Origin: Candidatus Moranbacteria bacterium GW2011_GWE2_35_2-
GTDB taxonomy: Bacteria > Patescibacteriota > Minisyncoccia > Moranbacterales > UBA9337
DNA length: 64,000 nt
Direction: 5' to 3'
NCBI GenBank assembly: GCA_000990585.1
Contig: LBQD01000001.1
Span: 62,965 to 126,964 of the forward strand
Shown here: positions 48,127-63,721 of the stretch, piece by piece
Position numbering within the stretch: the first letter of the stretch is position 1
How the letters are laid out: every line of letters starts with the position of its first letter
Made by a program: the position numbers and the translations under genes
Notes under the pieces: model-generated
What the model was told of the DNA's origin: nothing
Seen by the model: only the letters and a program-made list of their open reading frames with translations
Databases searched by the model: none

Positions 48127-49083
48127 ATGAAAATTCTCATTACGGGCGGAGCGGGGTTTATTGGTAGTGCGATTGCGAAAGCATTGATGGACCGGGGAGA
48201 TAAAGTTGTTTTGATGGATAATTTTAATGACTATTACGATCCAAAACTAAAGAGAGATAGAATAAAAAAATTTCTTGTTGGCTATGATTTTAAATTATAT
48301 AAATCTGATATTCGTTATTACAAAAAATTAGAAAGAATCTTCAAAAAAGAAAGTCCTGAAAAAGTTATTCATTTAGCTGCAATGGCCGGAGTTCGTTATT
48401 CTTTGGAAAATCCTCTCTTATATGGAGAAGTTAATTTTATGGGGACACTCAATCTTCTGGAACTTTCTCGAATTTATGGTATCAAAAACTTCATCTACGC
48501 TTCATCTTCTTCCGTATACGGAGTAAATAAAAAAATTCCATTTTCAGAAACAGATAATGTTGATAATCCAATCTCTCCATATGCAGCAACAAAAAAATCA
48601 ACCGAGCTTTTGGCACATGTGTATAGTTATACGCATAAAATGAAAACAACAGGTCTTCGATTTTTCACTGTATATGGACCTTGGGGGCGTCCAGATATGG
48701 CATATTTCAAGTTTGCTAATAATCTTTTTGCGGGCAAGCCAATTGAAATTTATAACAAAGGAAAAATGCTTCGAGATTTCACATATATCGATGATATTGT
48801 TGAGGGCATGCTGAAAGTTTTGGATGCAGATTTTGATTGCGAAGTGATGAATATTGGAGCGGAAAAACCGGAAAAATTGATGGATTATATCGAAGTGATT
48901 GAAGATAAATTCGGAAGAAAATTCAAAAAGAAAATGCTTCCAATGCAGCCGGGAGATGTTCCGCAAACAGTGGCTGATGTTTCAAAATTGAGAAAACTTG
49001 GTTGGCAGCCAACAACAAAAATCGAAAAGGGAATTGAAAAATTTGTTGATTGGTATCAGGAATATTATAAAGTAAGGAAGTAA
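48127..49083 (+). CDS. NAD-dependent sugar-nucleotide epimerase (UDP-glucuronate/UDP-GlcNAc 4-epimerase-like SDR)
   Basis: GGAGFIGS; YASSSSVYG...YAATK. Confidence 0.8.
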   Translation: MKILITGGAGFIGSAIAKALMDRGDKVVLMDNFNDYYDPKLKRDRIKKFLVGYDFKLYKSDIRYYKKLERIFKKESPEKVIHLAAMAGVRYSLENPLLYGEVNFMGTLNLLELSRIYGIKNFIYASSSSVYGVNKKIPFSETDNVDNPISPYAATKKSTELLAHVYSYTHKMKTTGLRFFTVYGPWGRPDMAYFKFANNLFAGKPIEIYNKGKMLRDFTYIDDIVEGMLKVLDADFDCEVMNIGAEKPEKLMDYIEVIEDKFGRKFKKKMLPMQPGDVPQTVADVSKLRKLGWQPTTKIEKGIEKFVDWYQEYYKVRK

Positions 49084-49084
49084 A

Positions 49085-49891
49085 ATGAATATTGATATTG
49101 AAAAAATAAAAGAAATCGCCAAAAAATCCGGGGAAAAAGTTTTGGAATATTATTACAAAGATTATAATATTTCATACAAAGATAGTGGTGGCAAAAAATC
49201 ACCTTTGACTGAGGCGGATTTAGCGTCGAATAAAATAATCATGGAAGAACTTGAAAAATATAATTTTCCGATTTTGAGTGAAGAAACGGAAGATGATTTA
49301 TCAAGGCTTCAAAGTGAATATGTTTGGATTGTTGATCCGTTGGATGGTACGAGTGATTTTATGGAAAAGACCGGTGAATTTTCGATTCTTATCGGGTTAG
49401 TAAAAAATGGTGAGCCGGTTTTGGGTGTGGTTTTCGAGCCGGCAAAAAATACTTTTTATTGGGCAGAAAAAGGGAAAGGCGCTTTTATGGAAAAAAATGG
49501 AAAAATCAAAAAAATAAATGTTTCCAATGAGGATAATTTTCAAGATATGACTATTTTGCTCTCGCGAAATCATCTTTTGGAAAGCGATAAAAAACTTTGT
49601 GAAAATTTGAAAATAGGAAAACAAACAAAAAGAGGGTCGACTTCCAAGATGTGCGTGATTGCGCGTGGAGATGCGGAAATCTATGTAAATACCAGTGATA
49701 AAACGGGGGAGTGGGATACTTGCGCGCCACAAGTAGTCTTGACGGAAGCGGGAGGTAAAATCGTGGATATGCGGGGAAAAGAACTAATGTATAACAAAAA
49801 AAACCCGAAGAATCTTAATGGATTTGTGGTGTCAAATGGTGAAAATTATGCTAGAATAGTTGAGGAATTGAAAAGGGTAATAAAAAGTTAA
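49085..49891 (+). CDS. cysQ: 3'(2'),5'-bisphosphate nucleotidase CysQ (inositol monophosphatase family)
   Basis: WIVDPLDGT. The context with cysC and sat supports a PAP phosphatase. Confidence 0.75.
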   Translation: MNIDIEKIKEIAKKSGEKVLEYYYKDYNISYKDSGGKKSPLTEADLASNKIIMEELEKYNFPILSEETEDDLSRLQSEYVWIVDPLDGTSDFMEKTGEFSILIGLVKNGEPVLGVVFEPAKNTFYWAEKGKGAFMEKNGKIKKINVSNEDNFQDMTILLSRNHLLESDKKLCENLKIGKQTKRGSTSKMCVIARGDAEIYVNTSDKTGEWDTCAPQVVLTEAGGKIVDMRGKELMYNKKNPKNLNGFVVSNGENYARIVEELKRVIKS

Positions 49892-49905
49892 ATTCAATAA
49901 GAATA

Positions 49906-50427
49906 ATGAAAAAAGGAATAGTGATTTGGCTTACGGGCTTGCCGTGCAGTGGGAAAACAACATTATCCAAGGAAATCGAAAAATATTTTCAGCAAAAGAA
50001 TTTGCCTATTCAGAGATTGGATGGCGATGTGGTGCGTGAAACCATCAGCAAGGATTTGGGATTTTCAAAAAAAGATCGCGACATTAACATAGAACGCCTT
50101 TCATATGTGGCGCAGATGCTTTCGGATAATGGAGTGAATGTGGTGTCTGCTTTTGTTTCTCCATATCAAAAAATGCGTGATTTTACCAGAAGTCTTTGTG
50201 AAAATTTCGTAGAAGTTTATGTTAAATGCGATATTGAAGAATGCAAGAAAAGAGATGTAAAAGGAATGTATGCCAAAGCCGCCAAGGGACAAATAAAAGA
50301 TTTCACAGGAGTTGATGACCCTTACGAAAACCCAAAGAATCCGGAAATTGTCGTGAGTACGGAAAAAGAAAATATAAAAGAAAGTGTCGAGAAAATCATC
50401 AACTATCTTGAAAAAAATAACGGATGA
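49906..50427 (+). CDS. cysC: Adenylylsulfate (APS) kinase
   Basis: IWLTGLPCSGKTTL...LDGD..R. Confidence 0.9.
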   Translation: MKKGIVIWLTGLPCSGKTTLSKEIEKYFQQKNLPIQRLDGDVVRETISKDLGFSKKDRDINIERLSYVAQMLSDNGVNVVSAFVSPYQKMRDFTRSLCENFVEVYVKCDIEECKKRDVKGMYAKAAKGQIKDFTGVDDPYENPKNPEIVVSTEKENIKESVEKIINYLEKNNG

Positions 50428-51485
50428 AAAAAATAAAAGCATCGGATGAAATTATTCAGGAGGCGCGTAATATTGTTGATGGATTGTATTTTCCCCTACA
50501 AGGATTTTTGAATGAAGATGACTTACGATCAATCTTGGAAAATATGCGTCTTAAAAGCGGACAAGTTTGGTCTATGCCGGTTGTTTTTGATATTTCCGAG
50601 AATGAAGCGCAAGAATTGAAAAATGAAAATTCAATTATTATTACAAATAAAAAAGATGAATTTTTTGTGAAAGATATTTCAATTTTCAAGTGGGACAGGG
50701 AATTTTTTGTCAAAAATTTATATGGAACATTAGATGGCGCGCATCCGGGAGTCGAGCGGGCAATGAAAATGAAAAAATTTCTTTTGAGTGGAAAAGTTGA
50801 AAAAATCAGAAACAGTGAAAAACCGGGAGTTTTTCATTTGACCTCCGAGCAAGCCAAAGATATTTTCAAAAAGAATGGCTGGGCGAATGTAGTAGCTTTT
50901 CAGACTAGAAACCCGCCACATCGCAGTCACGAGCATTTGCAAAAAACCGCTCTTGCGGAAGTTGACGGAATTTTGATAAATCCGGTAATCGGATCCAAGA
51001 AATCCGGAGATTTTCGCGACAAGCATATCATCGGCGCCTATCAGAAACTTATCAAGCACCATTACGAGCCGGGAAAAGCAGTTTTGGGGACACTGCACAC
51101 CTTTATGCGTTATGCCGGTCCCAGAGAGGCGGTTTTCCACGCTTTGGTGCGACGCAATTTAGGCTGTACTCATATGATTATCGGGCGGGATCACGCCGGC
51201 GTGGGGGATTATTATGGGACATATGACGCGCAAAAGATTTTCGATAATTTTACAGAAGATGAATTGGGGATTAGAATATTAAGGTATGAAAATGTGACGT
51301 ATTGTCAGGGTTGTGGCGATATGTCCGAAGATGGAAGTTGCGACCACAGCCAAGACCAAAAAATTCATCTTTCCGGCACAAAATTGCGAGAAAAACTCAA
51401 TAATAACGAAGAAATCCCAGAAGAATTTATGCGAAAGGAAGTGATTGAGTATTTGAAGGATAATAAGGATGATTTGTTTGTGTGA
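50424..51485 (+). CDS. sat: Sulfate adenylyltransferase (ATP sulfurylase, homo-oligomeric type)
   Basis: QTRNPPHRSHE, GRDHAG. Confidence 0.9.
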   Translation: MKKIKASDEIIQEARNIVDGLYFPLQGFLNEDDLRSILENMRLKSGQVWSMPVVFDISENEAQELKNENSIIITNKKDEFFVKDISIFKWDREFFVKNLYGTLDGAHPGVERAMKMKKFLLSGKVEKIRNSEKPGVFHLTSEQAKDIFKKNGWANVVAFQTRNPPHRSHEHLQKTALAEVDGILINPVIGSKKSGDFRDKHIIGAYQKLIKHHYEPGKAVLGTLHTFMRYAGPREAVFHALVRRNLGCTHMIIGRDHAGVGDYYGTYDAQKIFDNFTEDELGIRILRYENVTYCQGCGDMSEDGSCDHSQDQKIHLSGTKLREKLNNNEEIPEEFMRKEVIEYLKDNKDDLFV

Positions 51486-51665
51486 TAAAGTGGGTTGTAC
51501 GTAATTTAGGTTCTATCATAAGTAAGATATGATGCAAGTAGTTAATTTTAACGATTTACATGATAAGGTGTTAAGAGATATCAAAAACAAATGAATTTTT
51601 ATATAAAAAATAATTCAAAAAGAGTAGTTATTGAAAAAATTCACATCTTATTTTTTGGACATAAA

Positions 51666-52910
51666 ATGAGTCCAATGATGAAAAATTTTTTAAAAAATAT
51701 TTCTTGGACATCTTTTGGTTTTCTTGTGAGTTCTTTGATATTATTTACAGTTAATGTGTTAGCAGGAAGGTTTCTAGGACCAAGCGGATATGGGGAATAT
51801 AATTTTATTTTATCCGTTGCATCAATTGTTTCACTGCTTATTATTATGGGATTTGATTCATCGTCTATTAAATATATATCCGAATCAAAAACAGATAAGG
51901 ACAAAAATGAATACTTATCGGGATCATTGTGGGTTGTAATATTCTTAGCAATAGTTGTTTTGGTTGTAGTATTTTTAGCTCAAAATATTTTAAAAATATT
52001 TTTTGATATAAAAGAAGAAATTATAATAGTGTCTGTATTTTATGCTGCTTTATTGGGAATAAGAAAAATTTTAAGCAGTTTTTTGTCTAGTTTGAATTTT
52101 TTTAAGTTTCAATCAGTAATTATGATAATAGAAAGTTTAGCGGTGATATTATTATTTTTATACTTGTTTGTTATCTTAGGCTATAACCATTATTTATATT
52201 ATATTATTTCACTGTCTTTTGGAATTTTGTTGTTTTGCCTAACGACAATATTGAAAATAAGAAAAAGAGTTTTAAGGTATGATATAGATAAGATTTTATT
52301 TTTAAAACGCTATGCTATAGTCGCCTTTTTAACAGCCTTGGCAATTGCAACTCCTGTATCGCTAATAAAATTGTTTATTGGTAAATATCTTAGTATCCAG
52401 GATCTTGGAATATTTAGTGCATATATGGCAGTGACGGCTATTTTTGTAGGACAATTTATCCTTATAATTAATAATGTTTTTTTTCCGATGGTAAGTTCGA
52501 TCAATGATAAGCGACCAATTATTAATAAAATAAATAAAATTTCTTTTATTAGTTTTATTCCAATCACAGTGATTATTTTTTTAGTGGCATTTTTCATGTT
52601 GAAATTTTATGGAGATAATTATAAATTTAATATAATTTATGTAGGCATGCTATCTGTTATTTCATCATTGTTGCTTATAAATAACTTTTACAGAGTAATA
52701 GTGCAAACATACAATGAATATTACTTTAAATTACATAAATTTAACTATGTAAATATTTTATTTCTAAGTGCAGGTCTTTTTTTTATCAACATACTAGCGT
52801 TAAATAAAATGGCTTATGTTATCGGTATGTATATGCTTTATGTAGTAATAAATTTCTTTGTTCTATTTTTATTTACAAATTACTATATATTTAAAAATAA
52901 AAATATATGA
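51666..52910 (+). CDS. Wzx-like polysaccharide flippase (MOP superfamily). The ORF is open from 51591 and the start is ambiguous
   Basis: 12-14 TM; N-terminus KNFLKNISWTSFG is typical of Wzx. Confidence 0.75.
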   Translation: MSPMMKNFLKNISWTSFGFLVSSLILFTVNVLAGRFLGPSGYGEYNFILSVASIVSLLIIMGFDSSSIKYISESKTDKDKNEYLSGSLWVVIFLAIVVLVVVFLAQNILKIFFDIKEEIIIVSVFYAALLGIRKILSSFLSSLNFFKFQSVIMIIESLAVILLFLYLFVILGYNHYLYYIISLSFGILLFCLTTILKIRKRVLRYDIDKILFLKRYAIVAFLTALAIATPVSLIKLFIGKYLSIQDLGIFSAYMAVTAIFVGQFILIINNVFFPMVSSINDKRPIINKINKISFISFIPITVIIFLVAFFMLKFYGDNYKFNIIYVGMLSVISSLLLINNFYRVIVQTYNEYYFKLHKFNYVNILFLSAGLFFINILALNKMAYVIGMYMLYVVINFFVLFLFTNYYIFKNKNI

Positions 52911-53833
52911 ATAAAATTAAACTCCCATTTTTTATTGTCGGATCAGGACGTTCCGGAACGACATTATTACAATCTATGATCATGACAATTCAAGGAATAT
53001 ACATACCGCCAGAAACTAAATTACTTGGTTTGATAGAAAATATTGAAACTTTTCATGGATCAATTACTAATAATAAATCTTTCAGGCTATTGATTTATGA
53101 GATAATTAATCTATGTAAAAGAGATGAATTTCCTGTTAATTTAGTAAAATTAAAAAAAGAGCTAACGTTAATAAATAGAACGAGAAGATCAGTATTCGAT
53201 GTATTGTTATATCATATTCAAAAGCAAAGTGGTTGCAGGAGAATTGGAGAAAAATCACCTTTGCATCTTGAATATTCTAAGGATATTTTGAAAATATTTC
53301 CTGATGGAAAAATTATTGCAATAATACGTGATGGTCGTGATGTTGCATCTAGTCAGAAGGAAATTTTTAAGTTGAATGTGCTACACACTGCTCTTGTTTG
53401 GAGAAGAGATCAACAACTTATTGATAAATATTTAAAATCAGTATCGAGAGAGAGATTTATGGCTATTAGGTATGAAGACTTAATTGCTAATCCTAAAAAA
53501 GAGCTGAAAAATATCTGTCTTTTTTTAAAAGAAGATTTCAATGAATCGATGCTGGAGTTTTATAAAAGAAAAAATATTGGATTTGCAAAAAGAGAAAAGC
53601 ATAAATATGATACGCAAAAGCCAATATTCAATACAAAGCAAAATCGATATAAAAATGATTTATCCGATAGAGAAATAGCCCTTTTTGAGTTAATTGCTAA
53701 AAAACAGCTTATTGATAATAATTATAAATTAGAAAAAAAATATGTTATAGGGGGAATTTTTCAGATAATAATATGTATGCCATCCTTGATTTATGTTAAA
53801 TTAAAATGGATTATAAATAATTTGATTAGATAA
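52907..53833 (+). CDS. PAPS-dependent sulfotransferase
   Basis: 5'-PSB motif FFIVGSGRSGTTLL and 3'-PB motif IIRDGRDVASS. Confidence 0.85.
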   Translation: MNKIKLPFFIVGSGRSGTTLLQSMIMTIQGIYIPPETKLLGLIENIETFHGSITNNKSFRLLIYEIINLCKRDEFPVNLVKLKKELTLINRTRRSVFDVLLYHIQKQSGCRRIGEKSPLHLEYSKDILKIFPDGKIIAIIRDGRDVASSQKEIFKLNVLHTALVWRRDQQLIDKYLKSVSRERFMAIRYEDLIANPKKELKNICLFLKEDFNESMLEFYKRKNIGFAKREKHKYDTQKPIFNTKQNRYKNDLSDREIALFELIAKKQLIDNNYKLEKKYVIGGIFQIIICMPSLIYVKLKWIINNLIR

Positions 53834-53837
53834 AAAA

Positions 53838-55934
53838 ATGCTTGATAATTTATTAATGATATTTATTTTTTTCATAGTTCCATCAGTACTTGTTCTTAAT
53901 TTTCTCATAATTAAAAATCGAGGAAAGATCAGTATTTTTTTTATCACTCTTATTTCATTAGGGGTGGGCCCATTAATAAATGGATTATTATTCTTTTATT
54001 TGATGTGGTTTTTTCCCGAAAAAAGTGATTTATTTTATATATTGTCCCTATTGCTTTTTTGGGTAATTCCTGTTGTTTATTTGATTATTTCAATAAGATC
54101 TTTTTGTGAATTTTTATATTTGTTTATAGAAAAAATAGTTAATAAAAAAAATATAATTTATGATAGAAAATTTTTAGTGGGATATTTAATCATTGTCTTT
54201 GCTATTAGTATATTTATAACTCAGGCATTATTTTACCCCGCGGCAGATAATGATAGATCCTTATATTTAAATCAATCCGAGGCTATTTATGGGAGTAAAA
54301 ATTTTGATTGGAGAACAGAAAATAAAAATGTAATAATAAGAGGAAATGATGAATATAAATATAACCCTGCGATTAGACCGGGAATACCGTTTTCGATGAT
54401 TGTGACCTACGCATACAATGAGGATTATGATAGCAGGGATTTTTTTATTAGATTTCAGTCTGTGTATTATTATGTATTACTTTTATTATTATTCATTCTT
54501 GTTGTTTATCGATTTTCATTGAAGATTGATATTGATCCAGGAAAATCATTATTTTCATCATTGATTTTATTCGTTTTTTCTTCTGGATTGAGTCGGATGG
54601 TTATTTTCGGAAGTAAAGAAACGGCAATATATTTTTTTGCATTAGCTAGTCTCTATTTACTTATTGAAACGAATTTGTTAAAAAAAAGAGATTTATATAC
54701 TGAGTTTATTTTGGGAGTAGTTTTAGGACTTAATTCTTTTATAAATTTGCATGGTACTTTTGTCGCAGGAATAATAATTATATTAGTATTTTTATTTTCA
54801 AAAATAAAAATCGTAAAAAGAATTTCCCAAGTGTTTTCATTGGTTTTAATGATGTTTATTTTCGGAGGTATGGAAATTTTTTCTTTGGTTAAATTGATAT
54901 TTTTCAATAGAGTAATGGTGTCATCAGTGGGCGATAATACCATGTCAATTAGCAAGTTATCTAATGATATAGCAACAGTTGCCACAAGAAATAAAGAGAA
55001 TCTTACAAATATATATCAAACAAATAATATAACAGATACATATCTTAAGGGAAGATTGCAGATTCTGACTAATATTGGATATTTTGGATATCATTTCTGG
55101 ATATTTTTGATTATTATTTTTTTTAAGTGGAAAGATATTCTTAAAACACATTTTGGAAAAATAGTTAGTGTTTTTATTTTAATTTATTTTGTATTAGTGT
55201 TAGATCCATTTAATTTAAATTCCAATAGATATGCAGATATTCTATGGGGAAGTGTTAAATACGCTATGCTAGTACTTCTTTTGAGTATTATATTTTCAGG
55301 AACATTCATTCATTTATTTATGAAAAATATTGTTGATTTTATCGTAAGAAGAAGAAGATATTTAATAGTATCTGTATCAATATTTTTAATGTCCGCATAT
55401 TTTTTTTATAAACAAATAAGGGAAATTGGATTAAGTATGCTATTCTCGGTTATAAAAATCTATAAGGATACGTCTTTTTATGAGCAAAAATTCGATATAT
55501 ATTTTAAATTTCTGTTATTGATTTTAGTGGTATTTATTCTTGCTTTAATTCTTTATAGATTAATAGATAGTAAAAATTTTAATTTTATTATTTTCTCAAT
55601 GATTTGGCTGGTTATTATTACTCCATTTTTTATAATTGATATGGGAAAAGTTCCTATTTTAAAAACTTTTTCTTATGTTAAATATAAAAAGGAAGAAAAA
55701 TTGAAAAATATGGTTATGAATGGGGATGTATTTGATGTGTATTTTTACGCAAAAAAAATATTACCCAAAGATTCTGTTTTAATGACTGGGTTTAATGAGA
55801 TATTTCCATATGATGATCATTTTTCTTTGACAAAAAGAAAAACAAAAGATACATCATATTCAATATCTAAAAAATGCGACGTTGATTCAAAGATTCTATA
55901 TGAAAAAAATGGAATTTTTCTTTGTTCTAAGTGA
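53838..55934 (+). CDS. Large polytopic membrane protein (698 aa), putative Wzy-like polymerase or GT-C glycosyltransferase
   Basis: >14 TM segments; no catalytic motif recognised; context only. Confidence 0.4.
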   Translation: MLDNLLMIFIFFIVPSVLVLNFLIIKNRGKISIFFITLISLGVGPLINGLLFFYLMWFFPEKSDLFYILSLLLFWVIPVVYLIISIRSFCEFLYLFIEKIVNKKNIIYDRKFLVGYLIIVFAISIFITQALFYPAADNDRSLYLNQSEAIYGSKNFDWRTENKNVIIRGNDEYKYNPAIRPGIPFSMIVTYAYNEDYDSRDFFIRFQSVYYYVLLLLLFILVVYRFSLKIDIDPGKSLFSSLILFVFSSGLSRMVIFGSKETAIYFFALASLYLLIETNLLKKRDLYTEFILGVVLGLNSFINLHGTFVAGIIIILVFLFSKIKIVKRISQVFSLVLMMFIFGGMEIFSLVKLIFFNRVMVSSVGDNTMSISKLSNDIATVATRNKENLTNIYQTNNITDTYLKGRLQILTNIGYFGYHFWIFLIIIFFKWKDILKTHFGKIVSVFILIYFVLVLDPFNLNSNRYADILWGSVKYAMLVLLLSIIFSGTFIHLFMKNIVDFIVRRRRYLIVSVSIFLMSAYFFYKQIREIGLSMLFSVIKIYKDTSFYEQKFDIYFKFLLLILVVFILALILYRLIDSKNFNFIIFSMIWLVIITPFFIIDMGKVPILKTFSYVKYKKEEKLKNMVMNGDVFDVYFYAKKILPKDSVLMTGFNEIFPYDDHFSLTKRKTKDTSYSISKKCDVDSKILYEKNGIFLCSK

Positions 55935-56636
55935 GGTTATTTCTTTTCTTGCTTTAATTATAATATTTGGGAGAAGTAGAGATCCCCACCAGTTTCTGAA
56001 GTTTAAAAATATTCCTGAGCCGGTAGTTTTTTCTATAATAAAATTCTCTTCTTTGAGGGCTTTTTGCAAATCTTTTCTGGTAAAATATCCAATATGACCG
56101 CCATCCCATCCGTAACCCCAAGACGTTCTTGGTCTTATTCCGAAAAGGAATTTTAAACGATAGGGAAGGAAGACAATATTGGGAACTTCCAAAATAAAAA
56201 CTCCTCTTGGTTTTGTTATTCTCGCAACTTCCTTGATTGCAAAAATTGGATCGAATACATGTTCAAGGGTTGCAATCATAAATACTAGATCGAATTTTTC
56301 TTTTTCAAAAGTTAATCCGTCGTCGATGTTTTGAAAAGAAAAATTTTTTTCAAAATCTTTGAATTTTTCTTTGCAAGTTTCTACTGATTTTTTGCAGACA
56401 TCAATTCCAAATATATTTGCTTTTGGATTATCCTCCTTGAATCTTCGCAAAAGCTCTCCCTCATCGCATCCAATATCCAAAACAGCCGAAACATTTTTAG
56501 GGGATAATTTTAGCGCAACGTCTTTTCGTGTTATTTCGTATTTTGTGAGCTTATCATGCAGATAACCGAGAAATCCCAGTTGCGCAATATTCTTAGATCT
56601 GTTGTCGTAAAATTTATTGACGAAATTATTACTCAT
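55896..56636 (-). CDS. Class I SAM-dependent methyltransferase
   Basis: VLDIGCDEGELL motif I. Confidence 0.8.
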   Translation of the reverse strand: MSNNFVNKFYDNRSKNIAQLGFLGYLHDKLTKYEITRKDVALKLSPKNVSAVLDIGCDEGELLRRFKEDNPKANIFGIDVCKKSVETCKEKFKDFEKNFSFQNIDDGLTFEKEKFDLVFMIATLEHVFDPIFAIKEVARITKPRGVFILEVPNIVFLPYRLKFLFGIRPRTSWGYGWDGGHIGYFTRKDLQKALKEENFIIEKTTGSGIFLNFRNWWGSLLLPNIIIKARKEITSLRTKKNSIFFI

Positions 56637-56641: not shown

Positions 56642-57796
56642 TTATTTTTCGATGAATGTTTTAATATTTTTTATAACATAATCAATTTCATTTTTAGATA
56701 AGTCGTAATAAAAAGGCAGTCGTAATATTCTCGAACTCAGTGATTCTGTATTTTTAAGGTCATTTTTTTTGTAGCCAAATTTTCTGCCCATTTTTGAAGA
56801 ATGAAGTGGAAGGTAATGGAATACCGCTAATATATTGTTGGTTTTTAGAAATCTCATTAAGTCATTTCTCCTTTTTTCTGTCGGTAATACAATATAAAAC
56901 ATATGATAATTTTGATTGCAACTTTCTGGAACACTTGGCAATCGAAGAAGTTTTTTTTCTTCCAGTGATCTTAGTTTTTTATAATAATATTCAAAAATGC
57001 TTTTTCTTTTTTTCTGTATTCGATCCATTTTTTCAAGTTGAGCATAAAGAGTGGCGGCTATGATCTCGGAAGGAAGATATGATGAACCTAAATCAACCCA
57101 TCCGTATTTATTTACTTCTCCACGAAAAAATTTACTGCGATTAGTTCCTTTTTCGCGAATAATTTCTGCTCTTTCGATGAATTTTTTGTTATTTATGACG
57201 AGAGCTCCTCCTTCACCACAAGAATAATTTTTGGTTTCATGAAAACTGTATATTCCAAGATCCCCGATAGTTCCAAGATATTTATTTTTGTATTTAGCAT
57301 TAACCCCCTGAGCGGCATCTTCCACTACGTAAAGTTTGTATTTCTCGGCTATTTTAATTATTGTATCCATTTCACAAGCAACGCCAGCATAGTGCACAAC
57401 AAAGATTGCCTTGGTTTTATTGGTTATTTTTTCTTCAATTAAATTTTCATCAATGTTTAGGGTGTCTTCTCTTATATCGACAAAAATAGGGATGGCTCCT
57501 TGTAAAACAAAAGCATTCGCCGTGGAGGTGAATGTATATGATGGAACAATGACTTCATCTCCGGGCTTAAGATTTAAGAGCAGGGCGGCCATATCTAAAG
57601 CATGTGTCCCTGAAGTGGTCAATAAAACTTTTTTTGCATTAAATTTTTCTTCCATCAGTAGGGAGCATTTTTTTGTAAATTCTCCGTCTCCGGAAAGTTT
57701 TCTATTTTTAAAAACTTCTGAGATGTATCTCAGCTCATTTCCAGCATATGCAGGAATGTTGAATAATATTTTCATAGGGGGTGTTTTATGGTTCAA
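56642..57796 (-). CDS. DegT/DnrJ/EryC1 family PLP-dependent sugar aminotransferase (WecE-like dTDP-4-keto-6-deoxyhexose transaminase)
   Basis: ...SGTHAL..., PSYTFTSTANA, FHETKN. Confidence 0.85.
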   Translation of the reverse strand: MNHKTPPMKILFNIPAYAGNELRYISEVFKNRKLSGDGEFTKKCSLLMEEKFNAKKVLLTTSGTHALDMAALLLNLKPGDEVIVPSYTFTSTANAFVLQGAIPIFVDIREDTLNIDENLIEEKITNKTKAIFVVHYAGVACEMDTIIKIAEKYKLYVVEDAAQGVNAKYKNKYLGTIGDLGIYSFHETKNYSCGEGGALVINNKKFIERAEIIREKGTNRSKFFRGEVNKYGWVDLGSSYLPSEIIAATLYAQLEKMDRIQKKRKSIFEYYYKKLRSLEEKKLLRLPSVPESCNQNYHMFYIVLPTEKRRNDLMRFLKTNNILAVFHYLPLHSSKMGRKFGYKKNDLKNTESLSSRILRLPFYYDLSKNEIDYVIKNIKTFIEK

Positions 57797-58187
57797 AGAT
57801 ATAGTATTTTAGTTTAAATCCAGCTTTTTCAAATAATTTCATACTAGGATTGTTATCAATTTTTATTTTTGCCTGGATATTTTTATTTTTTTTCATCAAT
57901 TCCTTGACCATAAATAGACCTATACCGTTTCCTTGATATTTTGGATGGGTAGCAATTCGTATATCTCCATCTATGGTTCCAATGAATCCAGCTGGATTTC
58001 CATCCACAAGACAGATGTAATAATTTTCTTTATATTTTTTCATGTATTCAACTTGTTGAGCGGGAGTAATATTAACCTGCTCGATGAATCCTTTTTGCAC
58101 GATAGTGTCATTTCGCAAAAGTCGCATAAATTCGTAATATTTCTCAGAATTTTTCACAAATTCAATTTTTTTCGGTATTTTTTTCAT
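57786..58187 (-). CDS. GNAT family N-acetyltransferase (WecD-like candidate)
   Basis: ...QGNGIG...; size and fold pattern; adjacent to the aminotransferase. Confidence 0.65.
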   Translation of the reverse strand: MKKIPKKIEFVKNSEKYYEFMRLLRNDTIVQKGFIEQVNITPAQQVEYMKKYKENYYICLVDGNPAGFIGTIDGDIRIATHPKYQGNGIGLFMVKELMKKNKNIQAKIKIDNNPSMKLFEKAGFKLKYYIFEP

Positions 58188-59469
58188 TGATTTTATCTTG
58201 AAGTAATTTGTTTAAAAAATCCAAATAATGCCTAATTATTATATCATTTGTGCATACCTGTGTCGAATTTTTTGTACCATCCTTATTTTCTTTGAATAGG
58301 ACGGTTTGTAGATTATCCGAAAAATTTTCGTATTTAAAATTCTCAGTACAGTATCCATTTACTCCTGGAATTATCAAGTCAGGGGCTATTCCGATGTTAT
58401 AGGCGACAACTGGAGTGCCACAAGCAATTGATTGGTTGACCATAATTGGTCCAGCATCTTCAATTGATGGACTTGCGAATACGTTTGCGGATTGATAGGC
58501 GAGTGCTAATTTTTTGATATCTTGGATCCATCCAAGGTGGGTGTGTTTGAAAATATGATTTAAACTAGGTATTTCTCTGCCGGCGGAAACCAGCAGGATT
58601 GATTTTTCTTGTTCGAAGGAAAGGGTTTTTTTGAGATTTTCCAGGGATTTAATCAGATAGTCCATTCCCTTCCTTTCATCTTGGAAATCTTGAGAGCCGA
58701 AAAATATTATTTTGTTTTCGATCGGAAGATTGAGATTTTTTCTCGCTAGTGATTTGTTTATTTTTTTAAATATGTTTTCGTCAATATTCAAAAATATTTT
58801 TTCAACAGGTCTGTTTTTAAATAACGAGCTTTCTTTGATCTTTGATTCTACCCATGATGATGTTCCTATGAAATACAGTTCGAGATCTGATAGATATTTT
58901 CTTTTATTTTCCCATATTTTTCTGGAACGGTCATTTGCTTTATCTGACTTCAGTTGCGGGCACTTTCCGCATGAATTCTTGAATCCTGGACAAGCTCCTG
59001 GATAATGGCAGCCACCGGTTATCGGTTCCAAATCCTGCATTATCCATATTATTCGAGCCCCGCTATATTTTTGGATGTGGTTTATTAGTTTGGGAGTCAG
59101 AAATCCGTCCGTCCAGTGAATGAATATGAAATCAGTGGATTCGATATGTGGTTTTATCGATTCGAAATCTACCGGACTCTCATTGCTGTTGAAAACGTTG
59201 AGTATTTCGTAGCGGTTGATTTTTTTGAGTAAACGTTTTATTTTGCCGAAAACAAAATAGGTGAGGGGATTTCTCAAAAGGTGTTGAAAAAATTTTCCAT
59301 TAAAAAATCCGCCATTTATTCCGATAACGGATGGGTCTTGTGAGCTTTTGTAGCGCACTAACATTAGTGATTCCATATTATCGGTTTGATTGAATAATTT
59401 GTGAAGTTGATAGGCTGCCATTGCAGCTCCTCCGTTTTGGTCAAACGTATTAAAATGGACTATTTTCAT
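58162..59469 (-). CDS. Glycosyltransferase (GT4-like C-terminal domain) with an internal Cys cluster
   Basis: C-terminal ...ASPSIEDAGPIMVNQSIACGTPVVA...; GGCHYPGACPGFKNSCGKCP. Confidence 0.65.
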   Translation of the reverse strand: MKIVHFNTFDQNGGAAMAAYQLHKLFNQTDNMESLMLVRYKSSQDPSVIGINGGFFNGKFFQHLLRNPLTYFVFGKIKRLLKKINRYEILNVFNSNESPVDFESIKPHIESTDFIFIHWTDGFLTPKLINHIQKYSGARIIWIMQDLEPITGGCHYPGACPGFKNSCGKCPQLKSDKANDRSRKIWENKRKYLSDLELYFIGTSSWVESKIKESSLFKNRPVEKIFLNIDENIFKKINKSLARKNLNLPIENKIIFFGSQDFQDERKGMDYLIKSLENLKKTLSFEQEKSILLVSAGREIPSLNHIFKHTHLGWIQDIKKLALAYQSANVFASPSIEDAGPIMVNQSIACGTPVVAYNIGIAPDLIIPGVNGYCTENFKYENFSDNLQTVLFKENKDGTKNSTQVCTNDIIIRHYLDFLNKLLQDKINEKNTEKN

Positions 59470-60590
59470 AGTATTGTTATTTCTTTTAATATATTGTCAA
59501 CACGTATTTTTTCTAGTATCTGCGTCGAATTATTGGTTTTGTTGATATTTTTTTTGAATACATTGTCAATGGATTCCGATATGCATTCGGCACAATTTTC
59601 CCTGATAATGTATCCGTTTTTTCCATTTTCGATAAGATCAGCGCTCGCTCCTACTTTTTCAGTGGTAATTACCGGTAATCCACAGGCGATTGCTTCATTA
59701 ACCACTTGTCCCCAAATATCTTGTCGCGATGGAAATAATAATAAGTCTGAAATTCCATAATATTTATATAATTCCTTATATTGTACAAATCCCGCGAAGA
59801 ATACATTTTTTATGTTATCTTTCTTGATAATTTCTTTTAATTTTTCTTCATCAGGACCGGTGCCCATTAGGATGAGAGAAGTGTTAGAATCTTTTTTTAA
59901 GTACTCTTTAAACGCTACAATCATTTCAAAAATACCTTTCATTTCTATCAATCTTCCGCTAAAAAGAATAGTTTTCGTTGTTTTAATCCCTATCTTTTTT
60001 CGGAGTTCGTTTTTTTGATTGTCAGTAAATGAGCGTATTTTTTCTTGAAAAAAATCGACATCAATGGTGTTGTAAAATATCTCCACGTTTTTTTCAGGTG
60101 CTCCTAATGAAATCAGATATTCTTTGGATCTTGTTCCATAGGATAAAAATTTGTGGCTTCTTTTCACGATATATTTTACCAACGGACCAAAGAGGGTCCT
60201 TCTCCAACTCGGTTCATATTTAGTGCTTCCTGACCAAAGAATGAATTCTTTTTTGTTTTTGCGTGCCCACCAGTTTGCTGCGTAAGCAGCAAAATGATCC
60301 CAACCGAAACATATTATTTTATCTGGATTTTCTGATTTCAATAATTTTATCATTCCAAGGTTTATAAAAAAGGTATTTAAATCCTTTCCATGTTCTCTAA
60401 TTGCAAAATTATTTAATATAGTATAGTCAAATTTCATTCCTTGTTCTCGTTTCCAGTTTCTATTTTTATCTGATTCACTTAAAAAAACAACCTTAAGATT
60501 GCGATTATGTTTTTTTAGATAGTCGTAGATTTTGTTAAACAAAAAAACTCGTATCGGACCTATGTAGTTTATGATTATTAAAATTTTCAT
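59466..60590 (-). CDS. GT4 (group 1) glycosyltransferase
   Basis: ...E.FG.V..EA.ACG.PVI.... Confidence 0.82.
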   Translation of the reverse strand: MKILIIINYIGPIRVFLFNKIYDYLKKHNRNLKVVFLSESDKNRNWKREQGMKFDYTILNNFAIREHGKDLNTFFINLGMIKLLKSENPDKIICFGWDHFAAYAANWWARKNKKEFILWSGSTKYEPSWRRTLFGPLVKYIVKRSHKFLSYGTRSKEYLISLGAPEKNVEIFYNTIDVDFFQEKIRSFTDNQKNELRKKIGIKTTKTILFSGRLIEMKGIFEMIVAFKEYLKKDSNTSLILMGTGPDEEKLKEIIKKDNIKNVFFAGFVQYKELYKYYGISDLLLFPSRQDIWGQVVNEAIACGLPVITTEKVGASADLIENGKNGYIIRENCAECISESIDNVFKKNINKTNNSTQILEKIRVDNILKEITIL

Positions 60591-61370
60591 TTATTTCATA
60601 AGGCTCAATAATCGATAAATCATAGTTATCTTGTAATAATTGAATTTATGCAAGAATAATGATGCTGGATATTTTTTTCCGTATTTTTTAGCTAGCCTTA
60701 GTTCATCTTGAAATTGTTTTTTGTTGACACTGCCACTTTTGCTGTTTGGATAATATCTGAAATTCGCCAGATAATTATTAATAACTCCGGCTGGGTATTT
60801 TTGACCGATTCTAAGCCAAAATTCATAATCCATACACAGATGCTCATTTTCATCAAAAAAACCCCTCTCGGCGTGAATTTCGCGCTTCCAGAAGGTTGCT
60901 GGTTGGGAGATGAAATTTTCCGACAGCAATTTCGGGTAGCTGAATTTTTTGAGCAGTAAGTTCTTGTAAGTAGTTATCGGTTTGCGTATTTCTTGATCAT
61001 TTTCGTTTACTATTTTGCATTTTCCATAAGCCCAGAGTTTATCCGGATTTTTTTGAAAAAATTCCGTGACTTTTTTGAATGCTTCCGGTTCATAGGTGTC
61101 GTCGGAGTTGAGATAGGCGACGATTTCGCCGGTCGCCATTTCGAGACCCTTGTTAATTGCATCTGATTGCCCGTTGTCTTTTTCGGATTTCCAGATGACG
61201 CGGTCGGAATATTTTTTCAAAATTTCAATTGTTCCGTCAGTTGATCCTCCGTCCATAATGATATATTCAAGATTCGGATAATCTTGCTTGAGCACGCTCA
61301 AAATCGTCCGTTCAATAAATTCGGCTTGATTGTATGATGGGGTAATAATTGAAATTTTAGGATTGTTCAT
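60591..61370 (-). CDS. GT2 glycosyltransferase
   Basis: [14 protein letters not shown]...DGGSTDGT...NSDD. Confidence 0.85.
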
Positions 61371-63373: not shown

Positions 63374-63721
63374 TTATTGTTTGATCTTAGATTCGTCAAT
63401 GGTCTTTTTTCTTACGATTTCAGTCATTTGCTGTTCCAGTCTTTCGATGGCGGAGAGCAGTTTGAATATCATTAGGAATATTAAAAGAAATCCGGCAAGT
63501 ATTACGGCGTTTATATTTCCTTCAAGTCCAATTACGCGAGCCATTATATTGGTAAAAGAAGGAAAGAGCGCAATCAGAATCATTCCACCCCAGACAAAAA
63601 AACGAATGGATAGCTTATAAAAATTCTGACCCGTCTTACCTTTGACAAAATTTACAATTCCGGAATAAATCATCGATGAGGAAACCAGAATTACGATAAA
63701 TTGATATAAATGTAATTGCAT
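63374..63721 (-). CDS. Small 3-4 TM membrane protein (DUF2304-like) commonly found beside GT2 genes
   Basis: Size, TM pattern and C-terminal amphipathic helix; context. Confidence 0.5.
   Translation of the reverse strand: MQLHLYQFIVILVSSSMIYSGIVNFVKGKTGQNFYKLSIRFFVWGGMILIALFPSFTNIMARVIGLEGNINAVILAGFLLIFLMIFKLLSAIERLEQQMTEIVRKKTIDESKIKQ

What the first reader, a model, noticed from the sequence alone, without database searches (positions are those of the whole stretch)
49085..55934. Complete PAPS-synthesis module (sat, cysC, cysQ) beside a sulfotransferase, a Wzx flippase and a polytopic membrane protein: candidate sulfated cell-surface glycoconjugate locus
Sat and CysC make PAPS, and CysQ recycles the PAP by-product. 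The adjacent ORF has both PAPS-binding motifs of sulfotransferases (GSGRSGTT near the N-terminus, RDGRD mid-protein). No assimilatory reduction genes (cysH, cysIJ) are nearby, so PAPS here is most simply a sulfuryl donor for the sulfotransferase, whose product would be exported by the Wzx-like flippase. Sulfated glycans or glycolipids are rare in bacteria. In a reduced, likely episymbiotic genome, dedicating seven or more genes to this suggests a surface or host-interaction function.
Basis: partly seen in the sequence, partly recalled or inferred. Interest (0 to 1): 0.75.

Follow-up and report, generated by a model that had tools for sequence, protein, structure and literature searches.

The report
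Sulfated surface-glycan locus in a Moranbacterium
A tiny-genome groundwater bacterium (Candidatus Moranbacteria, about 0.79 Mb) carries the genes to make the activated sulfate donor PAPS inside a cell-surface sugar locus, next to a sulfotransferase, a flippase and a membrane glycosyltransferase, so it most likely decorates its surface glycans with sulfate; this is a known kind of locus, but I found no earlier report of it in this group of bacteria.

Summary
Genes 49085-55934 encode a CysQ-like PAP phosphatase, APS kinase, ATP sulfurylase, a Wzx-type flippase, a PAPS-type sulfotransferase with all cofactor motifs conserved, and a 698-aa polytopic protein.

New here:
- The locus runs from 48127 to at least 63721. 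It adds GDP-fucose and amino-sugar genes, three glycosyltransferases and a GacJ-type DUF2304 protein.
- Relatives keep the GT2, DUF2304, Wzx and GT-C backbone. They carry methyltransferases in the sulfotransferase slot and no PAPS genes.
- wzx, the sulfotransferase and the GT-C gene form a low-GC island (GC3 0.20).
- Two other candidate-phyla-radiation genomes also embed sat/cysC among glycan genes next to other sulfotransferases. A fourth, unassigned locus has sat-cysC among glycan genes with no sulfotransferase in the part fetched.
- Bacillaceae homologues sit beside cysH. No cysH lies within about 74 kb here.

Verdict: a sulfated surface-glycan locus, a new variant of a known kind. Still untested: the acceptor, the rest of the genome (for cysH) and the biological role.

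The parts
48127..49083 (+). NAD-dependent sugar-nucleotide epimerase/dehydratase (GalE/RmlB/TviC-like). It is the conserved left flank of the variable region.
   Evidence: Pfam Epimerase 5.9e-59. No NCBIfam equivalog reaches its cut-off. 65% identical to the epimerase at the same position in L012.
49085..49891 (+). CysQ-like 3'(2'),5'-bisphosphate nucleotidase, which would hydrolyse PAP to AMP and phosphate.
   Evidence: Inositol_P 4.1e-55. TIGR01331 CysQ 207.7 bits is the best family but lies below its cut-off of 228.8. The DPLDGT and WD motifs are visible in the sequence. 56% identical to the CysQ-like gene next to cysC and sat in L014.
49906..50427 (+). CysC, adenylyl-sulfate (APS) kinase.
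   Evidence: APS_kinase 4.3e-57. TIGR00455 211 bits against a cut-off of 138.7. 77% identical to the L014 homologue.
50424..51485 (+). Sat, homo-oligomeric-type ATP sulfurylase (PUA_2 plus ATP-sulfurylase domains).
   Evidence: PF01747 1.9e-83. NF003166 423.1 bits against 387, and TIGR00339 347.9 against 322.95. It belongs to a group of about 350-aa Sat proteins at 47-71% identity whose named members are CPR (Moraniibacteriota, Falkowbacteria, Parcubacteria).
51591..52910 (+). Wzx/MOP-family lipid-linked saccharide flippase; first gene of the low-GC cassette.
   Evidence: Polysacc_synt 8.5e-21 and Polysacc_synt_3 1.8e-15. About 13 hydrophobic segments. GC3 0.207. 37% identical to the wzx at the same position in L010.
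52907..53833 (+). PAPS-dependent sulfotransferase (Sulfotransfer_3) with a hydrophobic C-terminal helix that is probably a membrane anchor.
   Evidence: PF13469 7.3e-31. E36, K116, R141-D-G-R-D145, S149, W165 and E190 are invariant, and the 5'-phosphosulfate loop is nearly invariant. AF2 pLDDT 95.1. The nearest solved folds are TPST1/2 and the OLS/CurM sulfotransferase domains. Residues 279-297 have a Kyte-Doolittle mean of 1.95. GC3 0.201.
53838..55934 (+). GT-C fold membrane glycosyltransferase of a family with no direct Pfam match, with a small C-terminal soluble domain. It is the predicted extracytoplasmic transferase.
55896..56636 (-). SAM-dependent methyltransferase, the last gene of the convergent operon. 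It overlaps the 3' end of the GT-C gene by 39 nt.
   Evidence: Methyltransf_23 2.5e-19 and related families.
56642..57796 (-). WecE-type dTDP-4-amino-4,6-dideoxyhexose transaminase.
   Evidence: NF008687 601.3 bits against a cut-off of 375. DegT_DnrJ_EryC1 7.7e-95.
57786..58187 (-). GNAT acetyltransferase, probably an amino-sugar N-acetyltransferase.
   Evidence: Acetyltransf_1 1.6e-09. The role is inferred from its position next to the transaminase.
58162..59469 (-). GT4 glycosyltransferase.
   Evidence: Glycos_transf_1 5.9e-18.
59466..60590 (-). GT4 glycosyltransferase.
   Evidence: Glycos_transf_1 3.3e-36.
60591..61370 (-). Conserved GT2 glycosyltransferase; candidate polyprenyl-phosphate-sugar synthase (GacI/PpgS-like role, inferred).
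   Evidence: Glycos_transf_2 6.8e-33. 73-75% identical to GT2 genes in L010, L012 and L013. In L010 it lies directly next to the DUF2304 gene.
61357..62292 (-). GDP-L-fucose synthase (Fcl).
   Evidence: NF047922 516.4 bits against a cut-off of 500.
62303..63340 (-). GDP-mannose 4,6-dehydratase (Gmd).
   Evidence: TIGR01472 599.5 bits against a cut-off of 415.
63374..63721 (-). DUF2304 small membrane protein, the GacJ/Rv3632 family that partners with GT2 polyprenyl-phosphate-sugar synthases.
   Evidence: PF10066 5.5e-15, 56 bits against a cut-off of 25.5. 62% identical to the L010 homologue. The family's role is taken from bioRxiv 10.1101/180810.

Best explanation
This is a cell-surface glycan biosynthesis locus with its own sulfation supply line.

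Proposed pathway:
1. Sat converts sulfate and ATP to APS.
2. CysC phosphorylates APS to PAPS.
3. The membrane-anchored Sulfotransfer_3 enzyme transfers the sulfuryl group, on the cytoplasmic face, to a polyprenyl-phosphate-linked sugar or oligosaccharide. The glycosyltransferases of the same locus build that saccharide.
4. The CysQ-like enzyme removes the inhibitory by-product PAP.
5. The Wzx flippase moves the sulfated lipid-linked saccharide across the membrane.
6. The 698-aa GT-C glycosyltransferase transfers it to its final extracytoplasmic acceptor (a wall glycopolymer, lipid or protein).

Shown here: the family or fold of each protein, conservation of the catalytic residues, gene order and coupling, and the comparative pattern.

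Inferred: the order of the steps, the lipid-linked acceptor and the surface location.

Two sub-models remain open, and I give them roughly equal weight.
(B) A GacIJKL/GtrABC-like route. The conserved GT2 and DUF2304 proteins make a polyprenyl-P-monosaccharide. That sugar is sulfated here (methylated in relatives), flipped, and attached by the GT-C enzyme.
(A) An en-bloc route, in which a polyprenyl-PP-oligosaccharide is sulfated, flipped and transferred.
For: 1. All enzymes of PAPS synthesis and recycling, and the sulfotransferase, pass profile searches. The sulfotransferase keeps both PAPS-binding motifs and the invariant glutamate (E36) that I take to be the catalytic base. Its model is confident (pLDDT 95).

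2. The genes are translationally coupled in one co-directional string: epimerase-cysQ-cysC-sat-wzx-sulfotransferase-GT-C.

4. Relatives L010, L011 and L012 keep wzx, a modifier gene, the GT-C gene and a GT2 gene. L010 and L011 also keep DUF2304. The modifier in them is a methyltransferase and no PAPS genes are present, so the PAPS genes and the sulfotransferase are present or absent together.

5. There are independent CPR cases. In L014 (Moraniibacteriota), cysC-cysQ-sat lies between glycosyltransferases, with both a Sulfotransfer_2 and a Sulfotransfer_3 gene. In L023/L024 (Parcubacteria), sat and cysC lie inside a Wzx/Wzy_C/WbaP/Gmd/Fcl/GT10 cluster with a Sulfotransfer_1 gene. In L018 (unassigned metagenome contig), sat-cysC lies with NeuB, a CMP-sugar synthase and a teichoic-type transferase.

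6. Four of the six closest sulfotransferase homologues that I examined sit in Wzx/Wzy polysaccharide clusters.

7. As a control, the Bacillaceae sat homologues have cysH upstream (adjacent in L016, about 1.3 kb away in L017). No CysH-like sequence occurs in the window or in the CPR loci.

8. PMC11641403 states that PAPS genes plus sulfotransferases in a polysaccharide cluster are a hallmark of sulfated polysaccharide synthesis.
Against: - There is no biochemical evidence at all, and the acceptor is unknown.
- The closest solved structures are protein-tyrosine and acyl-ACP sulfotransferases, not carbohydrate ones.
- Two of the six close homologues lie outside glycan clusters.
- No initiating phosphoglycosyltransferase, Wzy polymerase, chain-length regulator or sulfate transporter was found in the window or in the 10 kb beyond it, so the pathway is incomplete as seen.
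- The PAPS genes (GC3 0.32-0.39) and the wzx/sulfotransferase/GT-C cassette (GC3 0.20) differ in composition. They were therefore not obviously acquired as one unit.
- The rest of the 788-kb genome could not be searched for cysH.
- The CysQ-like protein scores just below the curated cut-off.
Confidence: 0.7

Rival explanations
1. The PAPS module serves assimilatory sulfate reduction. PAPS would go to sulfite via a CysH encoded elsewhere, and then to cysteine. Its position next to the sulfotransferase would be incidental, or PAPS would be shared between the two uses.
For: Sat and CysC are the same enzymes used for assimilation in many bacteria. The nearest non-CPR homologues (Bacillaceae, 41-45% identity) are in cysH operons. 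Their base composition looks native to the genome. The rest of the genome was not searchable.
Against: No CysH-like sequence was found in the 64-kb window or in the CPR loci L014, L018, L021 and L023 (tblastn). No sulfite reductase appeared among the proteins profiled. All four loci examined from the short-Sat group (three assigned to CPR) lie in glycan clusters, and three include sulfotransferases. Sister loci without a sulfotransferase also lack the PAPS genes at this site. From general knowledge, CPR genomes usually lack amino-acid biosynthesis.
Confidence: 0.08
2. The sulfotransferase acts on a non-glycan substrate. This could be a tyrosine in a secreted or surface protein or peptide (TPST/RaxST-like), or a lipid or hydroxyacyl intermediate (CurM/OLS-like). 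The glycan genes would then only be neighbours.
For: The best sequence and fold matches among solved structures are the OLS/CurM sulfotransferase domains (4gox 2.4e-12) and TPST1/2 (Foldseek 8e-11, TM about 0.67). Two close homologues (L003, L009) are not in glycan clusters.
Against: The gene overlaps wzx by 4 nt, lies 4 nt upstream of the GT-C gene, and shares their low-GC island. In relatives the slot holds methyltransferases (FkbM/Methyltransf_21 and Methyltransf_23 families). Four of six homologue contexts are polysaccharide clusters. No precursor peptide, type I secretion, PKS or ACP genes are nearby. I know of no solved PF13469 polysaccharide sulfotransferase, so the nearest-structure ranking is biased.
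Confidence: 0.12
3. The locus does make a glycan, but the sulfation part is inactive or vestigial: a recently acquired low-GC cassette that is not expressed or lacks a sulfate supply.
For: The cassette is compositionally foreign. No sulfate transporter was seen in 74 kb. The promoter and terminator scans were uninformative.
Against: All ORFs are intact, all catalytic residues are conserved, and the genes are translationally coupled. The identical sulfotransferase protein was recovered in 39 index blocks of the collection, which points to a persistent population.
Confidence: 0.05

Closest known systems
Sulfated capsular polysaccharide cluster of Vibrio sp. KMM 8419 (PMC11641403)
   Same: PAPS-synthesis genes and sulfotransferases are embedded in a surface-polysaccharide gene cluster. 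The authors call this combination the hallmark of sulfated polysaccharide biosynthesis.
   Different: The Vibrio cluster uses CysDN-type sulfurylase plus CysC as second copies. It exports through a Kps ABC transporter across two membranes and sits in a large genome. The present locus uses a homo-oligomeric Sat, adds a CysQ-like gene, and pairs Wzx with a GT-C transferase in a 0.79-Mb CPR genome.
Synechan xss cluster of Synechocystis sp. PCC 6803 (PMC8205485)
   Same: A Wzx-dependent lipid-linked pathway with sulfotransferases encoded inside the cluster; the paper finds sulfotransferases of PF00685, PF03567 and PF13469 in such cyanobacterial clusters. Modification is proposed on the cytoplasmic face before flipping.
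   Different: xss has a Wzy polymerase, a PCP and an OPX, and the paper does not list PAPS genes in the cluster. Here no Wzy, PCP or OPX was found; instead there is a GT-C enzyme plus a GT2/DUF2304 pair and a complete PAPS module.
GacI-GacJ-GacK-GacL side-chain attachment in Streptococcus pyogenes; PpgS-Rv3632 in M. tuberculosis (bioRxiv 10.1101/180810); also Rv3779 in M. tuberculosis and GtrABC (my own knowledge)
   Same: The same four-part set is present: a GT2 enzyme, a DUF2304 small membrane partner, a Wzx-family flippase and a GT-C transferase that uses a polyprenyl-P-sugar outside the membrane. As I recall for Gtr, the donor synthase is highly conserved here (73-75%) while the GT-C is divergent (36-38%).
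   Different: None of those systems includes sulfation or PAPS genes. Orthology of the GT2 to GacI was not tested. The GT-C has no direct Pfam match, and DUF2304 is separated from the GT2 by gmd and fcl in this genome.
NodPQ/NodH of Sinorhizobium and RaxPQ/RaxST of Xanthomonas (from my own knowledge, not checked here)
   Same: A dedicated PAPS-synthesis module is co-encoded or co-regulated with a sulfotransferase that makes a secreted or surface signal, rather than serving cysteine synthesis.
   Different: Those use CysDN/CysC-type enzymes. Their substrates are a lipochitooligosaccharide (NodH) or a peptide tyrosine (RaxST), and there is no Wzx/GT-C machinery.

Membership tests
ATP sulfurylase (Sat, PF01747 / TIGR00339) | Profile score above the curated cut-off, and PUA_2 plus catalytic domain architecture | tested here: met
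   NF003166 423.1 bits against 387. TIGR00339 347.9 against 322.95. PF01747 1.9e-83 plus PF14306 2.4e-30. The QTRNPPHRSHE and GRDHAG motifs are visible in the translation.
APS kinase (CysC, PF01583 / TIGR00455) | Profile score above the cut-off, and a P-loop | tested here: met
   TIGR00455 211 bits against 138.7. The GLPCSGKTT P-loop is visible in the sequence.
CysQ 3'(2'),5'-bisphosphate nucleotidase (TIGR01331) | Equivalog score above the curated cut-off | tested here: inconclusive
   207.7 bits against a cut-off of 228.8. It is still the best family by more than 70 bits over HisN. Pfam Inositol_P is passed. Adjacency to cysC and sat is conserved in L014.
PAPS-dependent sulfotransferase (Sulfotransfer_3, PF13469) | Profile score above gathering; 5'-phosphosulfate-binding loop, 3'-phosphate-binding R...S motif and a catalytic base | tested here: met
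   108.5 bits against 27. GxxRSGTT is nearly invariant. R141-D-G-R-D145 and S149 are invariant. E36 is invariant and aligns with the PPE motif of the CurM/OLS sulfotransferases. The sulfotransferase fold is confirmed.
Carbohydrate (glycan) sulfotransferase, by acceptor | Demonstrated or diagnostic saccharide acceptor site | not testable with these tools
   Only context supports it: the position between wzx and the GT-C gene, and four of six homologue contexts in polysaccharide clusters. The nearest solved folds are TPST and CurM/OLS.
Wzx / MOP flippase (PF01943) | Profile score above gathering; polytopic, about 12-14 TM segments | tested here: met
   75 bits against 28.2. About 13 hydrophobic segments.
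GT-C fold glycosyltransferase | GT-C membrane fold with a conserved acidic residue in the first extracytoplasmic loop | tested here: met
Classical Wzx/Wzy-dependent polysaccharide pathway | Wzy polymerase, PCP/Wzz and an initiating phosphoglycosyltransferase in the locus | tested here: not met
   No Wzy_C, Wzz, Bac_transf or Glycos_transf_4 match in any ORF from 48 to 64 kb or in the 10 kb beyond. The Parcubacteria locus L023 does have Wzy_C and Bac_transf.
GacIJKL / PpgS-Rv3632-Rv3779 type extracytoplasmic glycosylation | GT2 polyprenyl-P-sugar synthase, DUF2304 partner, flippase and GT-C transferase | tested here: inconclusive
   All four component types are present, and all four recur in L010/L011. 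Whether the GT2 makes a polyprenyl-P-sugar was not tested, and no GacI sequence was available for comparison.
Sulfated-polysaccharide gene cluster (hallmark as defined in PMC11641403) | PAPS-synthesis genes and a sulfotransferase inside a polysaccharide biosynthesis cluster | tested here: met
   sat, cysC, a cysQ-like gene and the sulfotransferase are flanked by an epimerase, wzx, GT-C, GT4 x2, GT2, gmd, fcl and a wecE-like gene.
Assimilatory sulfate reduction operon | PAPS/APS reductase (CysH) and sulfite reductase together with sat/cysC | tested here: not met
   Neither was found in the window or in about 10 kb beyond it. The positive control L016/L017 does show CysH next to sat. The rest of the genome could not be tested.

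The most novel reading that the evidence does not exclude
CPR/Patescibacteria may recurrently make sulfated surface glycans through a swappable 'flippase, modifier, GT-C' cassette. In this reading the sulfotransferase (or a methyltransferase in sister strains) modifies a polyprenyl-phosphate-linked monosaccharide made by a conserved GT2/DUF2304 pair, before flipping. The GT-C enzyme would then use a sulfated polyprenyl-P-sugar as its donor. To my knowledge that donor type has not been described. The cassette would act as a serotype-like variable determinant of the cell surface, and perhaps of host or phage recognition.
Probability: 0.25. Interest if true: 0.7.

Novelty: new variant of a known kind. 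Interest (0 to 1): 0.55.

Why it matters
CPR bacteria have very small genomes and are thought to live attached to host cells, so what they display on their surface is central to their biology and almost unknown. Each sulfate transferred costs several ATP equivalents. A 0.79-Mb genome that keeps sat, cysC, a cysQ-like gene and a sulfotransferase inside a glycan locus is therefore probably under selection for a strongly anionic surface glycan.

The same association recurs in two other CPR genomes with three different sulfotransferase families. This suggests a lineage-wide trait rather than a one-off, and it gives a concrete, testable marker: sulfate esters in envelope glycans.

The work also assigns a fold, and a likely role, to a family of about 700-aa membrane proteins with no Pfam match (385 representative clusters). 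It shows that the modifier slot beside that protein varies between strains, sulfo- in one and methyl- in others, as in serotype-conversion cassettes.

The underlying logic, PAPS genes plus a sulfotransferase in a polysaccharide cluster, is already known from Vibrio; sulfotransferases inside such clusters are also known from cyanobacteria.

Tried and rejected
- Promoter and terminator consensus scans of 47900-56800 gave counts no higher than shuffles (58 against 47±7, and 3 against 3.9). They say nothing about operon boundaries.
- The Sat single-protein scan of metagenome contigs returned only three loci, one of them a 43-residue fragment. The genome-collection scan returned four loci and did not return the source genome itself.
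- Literature searches for sulfotransferase together with CPR, Patescibacteria or Moranbacteria names found nothing relevant.
- A profile search of the GT-C family against PDB sequences gave only noise, E 0.1 or higher.
- There are no tRNA genes and no Rfam matches in the window, so no obvious integration-site marker flanks the low-GC cassette.
- I considered a Wzy polymerase or O-antigen ligase identity for the 698-aa protein and set it aside. It has no Wzy_C match, and its fold and remote-sequence links point to ArnT/PMT/ALG/OST-type GT-C enzymes.
- I considered whether the low GC of the cassette is only a membrane-protein effect and rejected it. The mostly soluble sulfotransferase shares GC3 0.20, while other membrane proteins in the window (SecY 0.36, AcrB-like 0.40, DUF6541 0.29) do not.

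Full report
**Observation**

- 49085-49891 is an inositol-monophosphatase-family protein (Inositol_P 4.1e-55). Its best curated family is CysQ (TIGR01331, 207.7 bits), slightly under that model's cut-off of 228.8.
- 49906-50427 is an APS kinase (PF01583 4.3e-57; TIGR00455 211 bits against 138.7).
- 50424-51485 is an ATP sulfurylase with PUA_2 and catalytic domains (PF01747 1.9e-83; NF003166 423 against 387).
- 51591-52910 is a Wzx/MOP-type flippase (Polysacc_synt 8.5e-21).
- 52907-53833 is a sulfotransferase (Sulfotransfer_3 7.3e-31, 108.5 bits against a gathering score of 27; Sulfotransfer_1 6.9e-12).
- 53838-55934 is a 698-aa protein with no Pfam or NCBIfam match.

Spacing is operon-like: 1 nt between the epimerase gene and cysQ, a 4-nt overlap between cysC and sat, a 4-nt overlap between wzx and the sulfotransferase gene, and a 4-nt gap before the 698-aa gene. 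The exact protein look-up identifies the source as Candidatus Moranbacteria bacterium GW2011_GWE2_35_2- (locus tags UR69_C0001G0131/0132; longest contig 788,208 bp) from groundwater metagenomes.

**Extent of the locus**

The sulfation genes are part of a larger glycan locus.

- Upstream on the same strand lies a sugar-nucleotide epimerase (48127-49083).
- Converging from the other strand are a methyltransferase, a WecE-type dTDP-4-amino-4,6-dideoxyhexose transaminase (NF008687 601 bits against 375) and a GNAT acetyltransferase.
- These are followed by two GT4 and one GT2 glycosyltransferases, GDP-fucose synthase (516 against 500), GDP-mannose dehydratase (599 against 415) and a DUF2304 protein (56 bits against 25.5).
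- Beyond the window end come small unknown proteins, a sigma-54-activator-like ATPase, Fic, another GT2 and, about 10 kb out, a UDP-glucose dehydrogenase.

No Wzy, Wzz, initiating phosphoglycosyltransferase, CysH, sulfite reductase or sulfate permease turned up among the window's larger ORFs downstream of 12.6 kb or in this extension. The ORFs in the first 12.6 kb were not profiled; the CysH tblastn did cover the whole window.

**The sulfotransferase**

- Across 27 homologues the 5'-phosphosulfate loop (GxxRSGTT) is nearly invariant. E36, K116, R141-D-G-R-D145, S149, W165 and E190 are invariant.
- E36 aligns with the PPE motif of the CurM and olefin-synthase sulfotransferase domains. From my own knowledge, that glutamate is their catalytic base.
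- The AlphaFold model is very confident (pLDDT 95.1).
- Its nearest solved structures are TPST2/TPST1 and the OLS/CurM sulfotransferase domains (Foldseek E 8e-11 to 1e-9). Mycobacterial Stf1/Stf9 and the cytosolic SULTs are far weaker.
- This ranking says the protein is a competent PAPS enzyme. It does not settle the acceptor, because I know of no solved PF13469 polysaccharide sulfotransferase.
- The last 30 residues form a long helix whose first 19 residues reach transmembrane-level hydrophobicity (Kyte-Doolittle mean 1.95). The enzyme is probably held at the membrane.
- Its closest relatives are only 35-46% identical, and those whose contigs I examined come from large genomes. Of six contexts examined, four are Wzx/Wzy-type polysaccharide clusters (L004, L005, L007, L008) and two are not (L003, L009). 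None has adjacent PAPS genes.

**The 698-aa protein**

- The word-indexed search found only 15 relatives, all about 700 aa and without Pfam domains. The exhaustive profile search found 385 representative clusters, 104 of them at E ≤ 1e-30.
- There is no sequence-level match to any PDB chain. However, 22 of 36 remote family members match Pfam PMT_2, with a best E of 1.1e-13. This links the family to the ArnT/PMT type, which uses polyprenyl-monophosphate sugars.
- An aspartate in the first external loop (D139, in FYPxxDND) is invariant in the close family and stays invariant in the remote alignment. This is as expected for a GT-C catalytic loop.
- The protein is therefore a membrane glycosyltransferase acting outside the membrane. 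It is not an anonymous transporter or a Wzy polymerase.

**Comparative synteny**

- Three related loci carrying this GT-C family (L010/L011 and L012) show the order: epimerase or fcl, then wzx, then a modifier gene, then the GT-C gene, then a convergent GT2. In a fourth, more distant locus (L013), wzx and the GT-C gene are not adjacent.
- Identities to the window proteins are 65% for the epimerase (L012), 73-75% for the GT2, 62% for DUF2304, 70-75% for Gmd/Fcl, 37% for Wzx and 36-38% for the GT-C.
- In those relatives the gene between wzx and the GT-C is a methyltransferase (Methyltransf_23 or FkbM-type Methyltransf_21), and there are no PAPS genes.
- So the sulfotransferase occupies a variable modifier slot. 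The PAPS module sits in the variable stretch between the conserved epimerase and wzx. The two are present here and absent together elsewhere.
- wzx, the sulfotransferase and the GT-C gene form a sharp compositional island. Their GC is 24-27% and their GC3 is 0.20. The other 27 genes measured have GC3 of 0.26-0.43, and cysQ, cysC and sat are at 0.32-0.39.
- The mostly soluble sulfotransferase shares the low GC3, and other membrane proteins in the window do not. The island is therefore not an amino-acid-composition effect. L010 shows a similar dip over its wzx, methyltransferase and GT-C genes.

**Is PAPS for sulfation or for assimilation?**

Sat belongs to a group of about 350-aa proteins at 47-71% identity. 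The named members are Moraniibacteriota, Falkowbacteria and Parcubacteria; below about 47% identity the named hits are Bacillaceae and archaea. Three further loci from this group were examined.

- In L014 (a Moraniibacteriota MAG; Sat 62%, CysC 77%, CysQ-like 56% identical), cysC-cysQ-sat lies between glycosyltransferases. It is followed by a Sulfotransfer_2 gene, and a Sulfotransfer_3/1 gene lies upstream.
- In L023/L024 (a Parcubacteria MAG), sat and cysC are embedded in a cluster with Wzx, Wzy_C, a WbaP-type transferase, Gmd/Fcl, a GT10 fucosyltransferase, methyltransferases and a Sulfotransfer_1 gene.
- In L018 (a metagenome contig with no taxon assigned), sat-cysC lies with NeuB, UDP-GlcNAc 2-epimerase, a CMP-sugar synthase, a teichoic-type glycerophosphotransferase and UDP-glucose dehydrogenase. 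No sulfotransferase was seen in the part fetched.
- As a control, the Bacillaceae homologues L016 and L017 have a PAPS reductase gene upstream of sat: adjacent in L016 (PAPS_reduct 1.5e-57) and about 1.3 kb away in L017. The same CysH query finds nothing in the window or in any CPR locus.

Together with the synteny result, this makes sulfation the best reading. It does not exclude a cysH elsewhere in the genome, which I could not search.

**Mechanism**

The steps I regard as well supported are these.
1. Sat and CysC make PAPS.
2. The membrane-tethered sulfotransferase uses it in the cytoplasm, since PAPS is cytoplasmic.
3. The CysQ-like enzyme removes PAP.
4. The Wzx protein flips a lipid-linked saccharide.
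5. The GT-C enzyme transfers it outside.

The substrate level is inferred. Two sub-models fit.

- **Sub-model B** follows the GacI-GacJ-GacK-GacL system of Streptococcus pyogenes. There a GT2 enzyme with its DUF2304 partner makes GlcNAc-P-undecaprenol, a Wzx-family protein is proposed to flip it, and a GT-C enzyme attaches it to the wall polysaccharide. PpgS-Rv3632 in M. tuberculosis is analogous (bioRxiv 10.1101/180810); the Mtb GT-C partner Rv3779 is from my own knowledge. The present backbone has the same four component types. The link to PMT_2 and the pattern of a conserved donor synthase with a divergent GT-C (as I recall for GtrABC) favour this route. The sulfotransferase would then act on a polyprenyl-P-sugar.
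- **Sub-model A** is sulfation of a polyprenyl-PP-oligosaccharide built by the GT4 and GT2 enzymes, followed by flipping and en-bloc transfer. It is favoured by the Wzx family's usual substrates and by the structural similarity to oligosaccharyltransferases.

I cannot separate the two.

**Rivals**

- Assimilation (confidence 0.08) is weakened by the context data above.
- A non-glycan acceptor such as protein tyrosine, or a hydroxyacyl intermediate (0.12), is suggested only by the nearest solved structures and by two homologue contexts. It is contradicted by the gene's coupling to wzx and the GT-C gene and by the absence of peptide, PKS or secretion genes.
- An inactive remnant (0.05) is unlikely, given the intact genes and conserved residues.

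**Comparison with what is known, and novelty**

PAPS genes plus sulfotransferases inside a polysaccharide cluster have been described for Vibrio sp. KMM 8419, where the combination is called a hallmark of sulfated polysaccharide synthesis (PMC11641403). Sulfotransferases of the same three Pfam families lie in Wzx/Wzy clusters of cyanobacteria, with synechan as the worked example (PMC8205485).

What differs here:
- the host, an ultra-small CPR genome; I found no paper linking sulfotransferases to CPR;
- the sulfurylase type, and the inclusion of a CysQ-like gene;
- the absence of Wzy, PCP and OPX;
- the pairing with a GT-C enzyme that has no direct Pfam match, plus a GT2/DUF2304 module;
- the evidence that the modifier slot is swapped between strains.

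I rate this a new variant of a known kind, with interest 0.55.

**Limits**

- Everything is inferred from sequence.
- The GT-C model rests on a shallow alignment, although the fold assignment is unanimous among the top hits.
- Only six sulfotransferase-homologue contexts and four Sat-group contexts were sampled, because look-ups are capped.
- The source of sulfate, the initiating transferase, the acceptor and the biological role (host attachment, phage evasion or ion binding) are all unknown.

Noticed in passing
window 51591-55934; L010 8001-13000: wzx, the sulfotransferase and the GT-C gene form a sharp low-GC island: GC 24-27% and GC3 0.20, against 0.26-0.43 for the other genes measured. A similar dip covers the equivalent cassette in a related locus. 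This resembles the low-GC wzx/wzy cores of O-antigen loci and suggests cassette exchange.
   Followed up: partly
window 22760-23797 (+): A full-length HypD hydrogenase-maturation protein (PF01924, 4.8e-124) sits next to glycolytic genes (tpi, fba). This implies a [NiFe]-hydrogenase maturation system in this small genome. No other hyp or hydrogenase genes were looked for.
   Followed up: no
window 25004-29398 (-): An AcrB-type RND transporter (1078 aa, 8e-153) with a HlyD-like membrane-fusion protein. A tripartite-pump inner part would be unexpected in a CPR bacterium presumed to lack an outer membrane.
   Followed up: no
window 32649-36707 (-): A second glycan-related gene group: a 639-aa polytopic DUF6541 protein (possibly another GT-C-like enzyme), then a GT4 and a GT2 glycosyltransferase.
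   Followed up: no
window 43726-48102 (+): mreB-mreC-mreD-pbp2 lie directly upstream of the glycan/PAPS genes, on the same strand and with short gaps. The surface-glycan genes may therefore be co-transcribed with the cell-elongation machinery.
   Followed up: no
window 55896-55934: The 3' end of the GT-C gene and the 3' end of the convergent methyltransferase gene overlap by 39 nt. No terminator-like hairpin lies between the two convergent operons.
   Followed up: partly
window 30049-30873 (-) and 37138-38430 (+): A two-domain rhodanese (1.4e-29) and the tRNA 2-thiolation enzyme MnmA show sulfur trafficking by persulfide chemistry in the same window. Neither is connected to sulfate activation.
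   Followed up: no
L014 677-1399 (-) and 9151-9912 (+): The related Moraniibacteriota locus carries two sulfotransferases of different families (Sulfotransfer_3/1 and Sulfotransfer_2) around its cysC-cysQ-sat module. It also has a DUF5672 protein and a 1408-aa multi-domain GT2+GT4 protein.
   Followed up: partly
L010 6299-6673 and 18115-18468; L010 21189-21887; L013 5650-6321; L023 11805-12578; L021 6067-7095: CPR glycan loci related to this one are interspersed with AbiEii toxin-antitoxin genes, Fic, and 23S_rRNA_IVP/bAvd-like genes (the last only in L010/L011). This hints that these surface-glycan regions are hotspots for defence or mobile elements.
   Followed up: no
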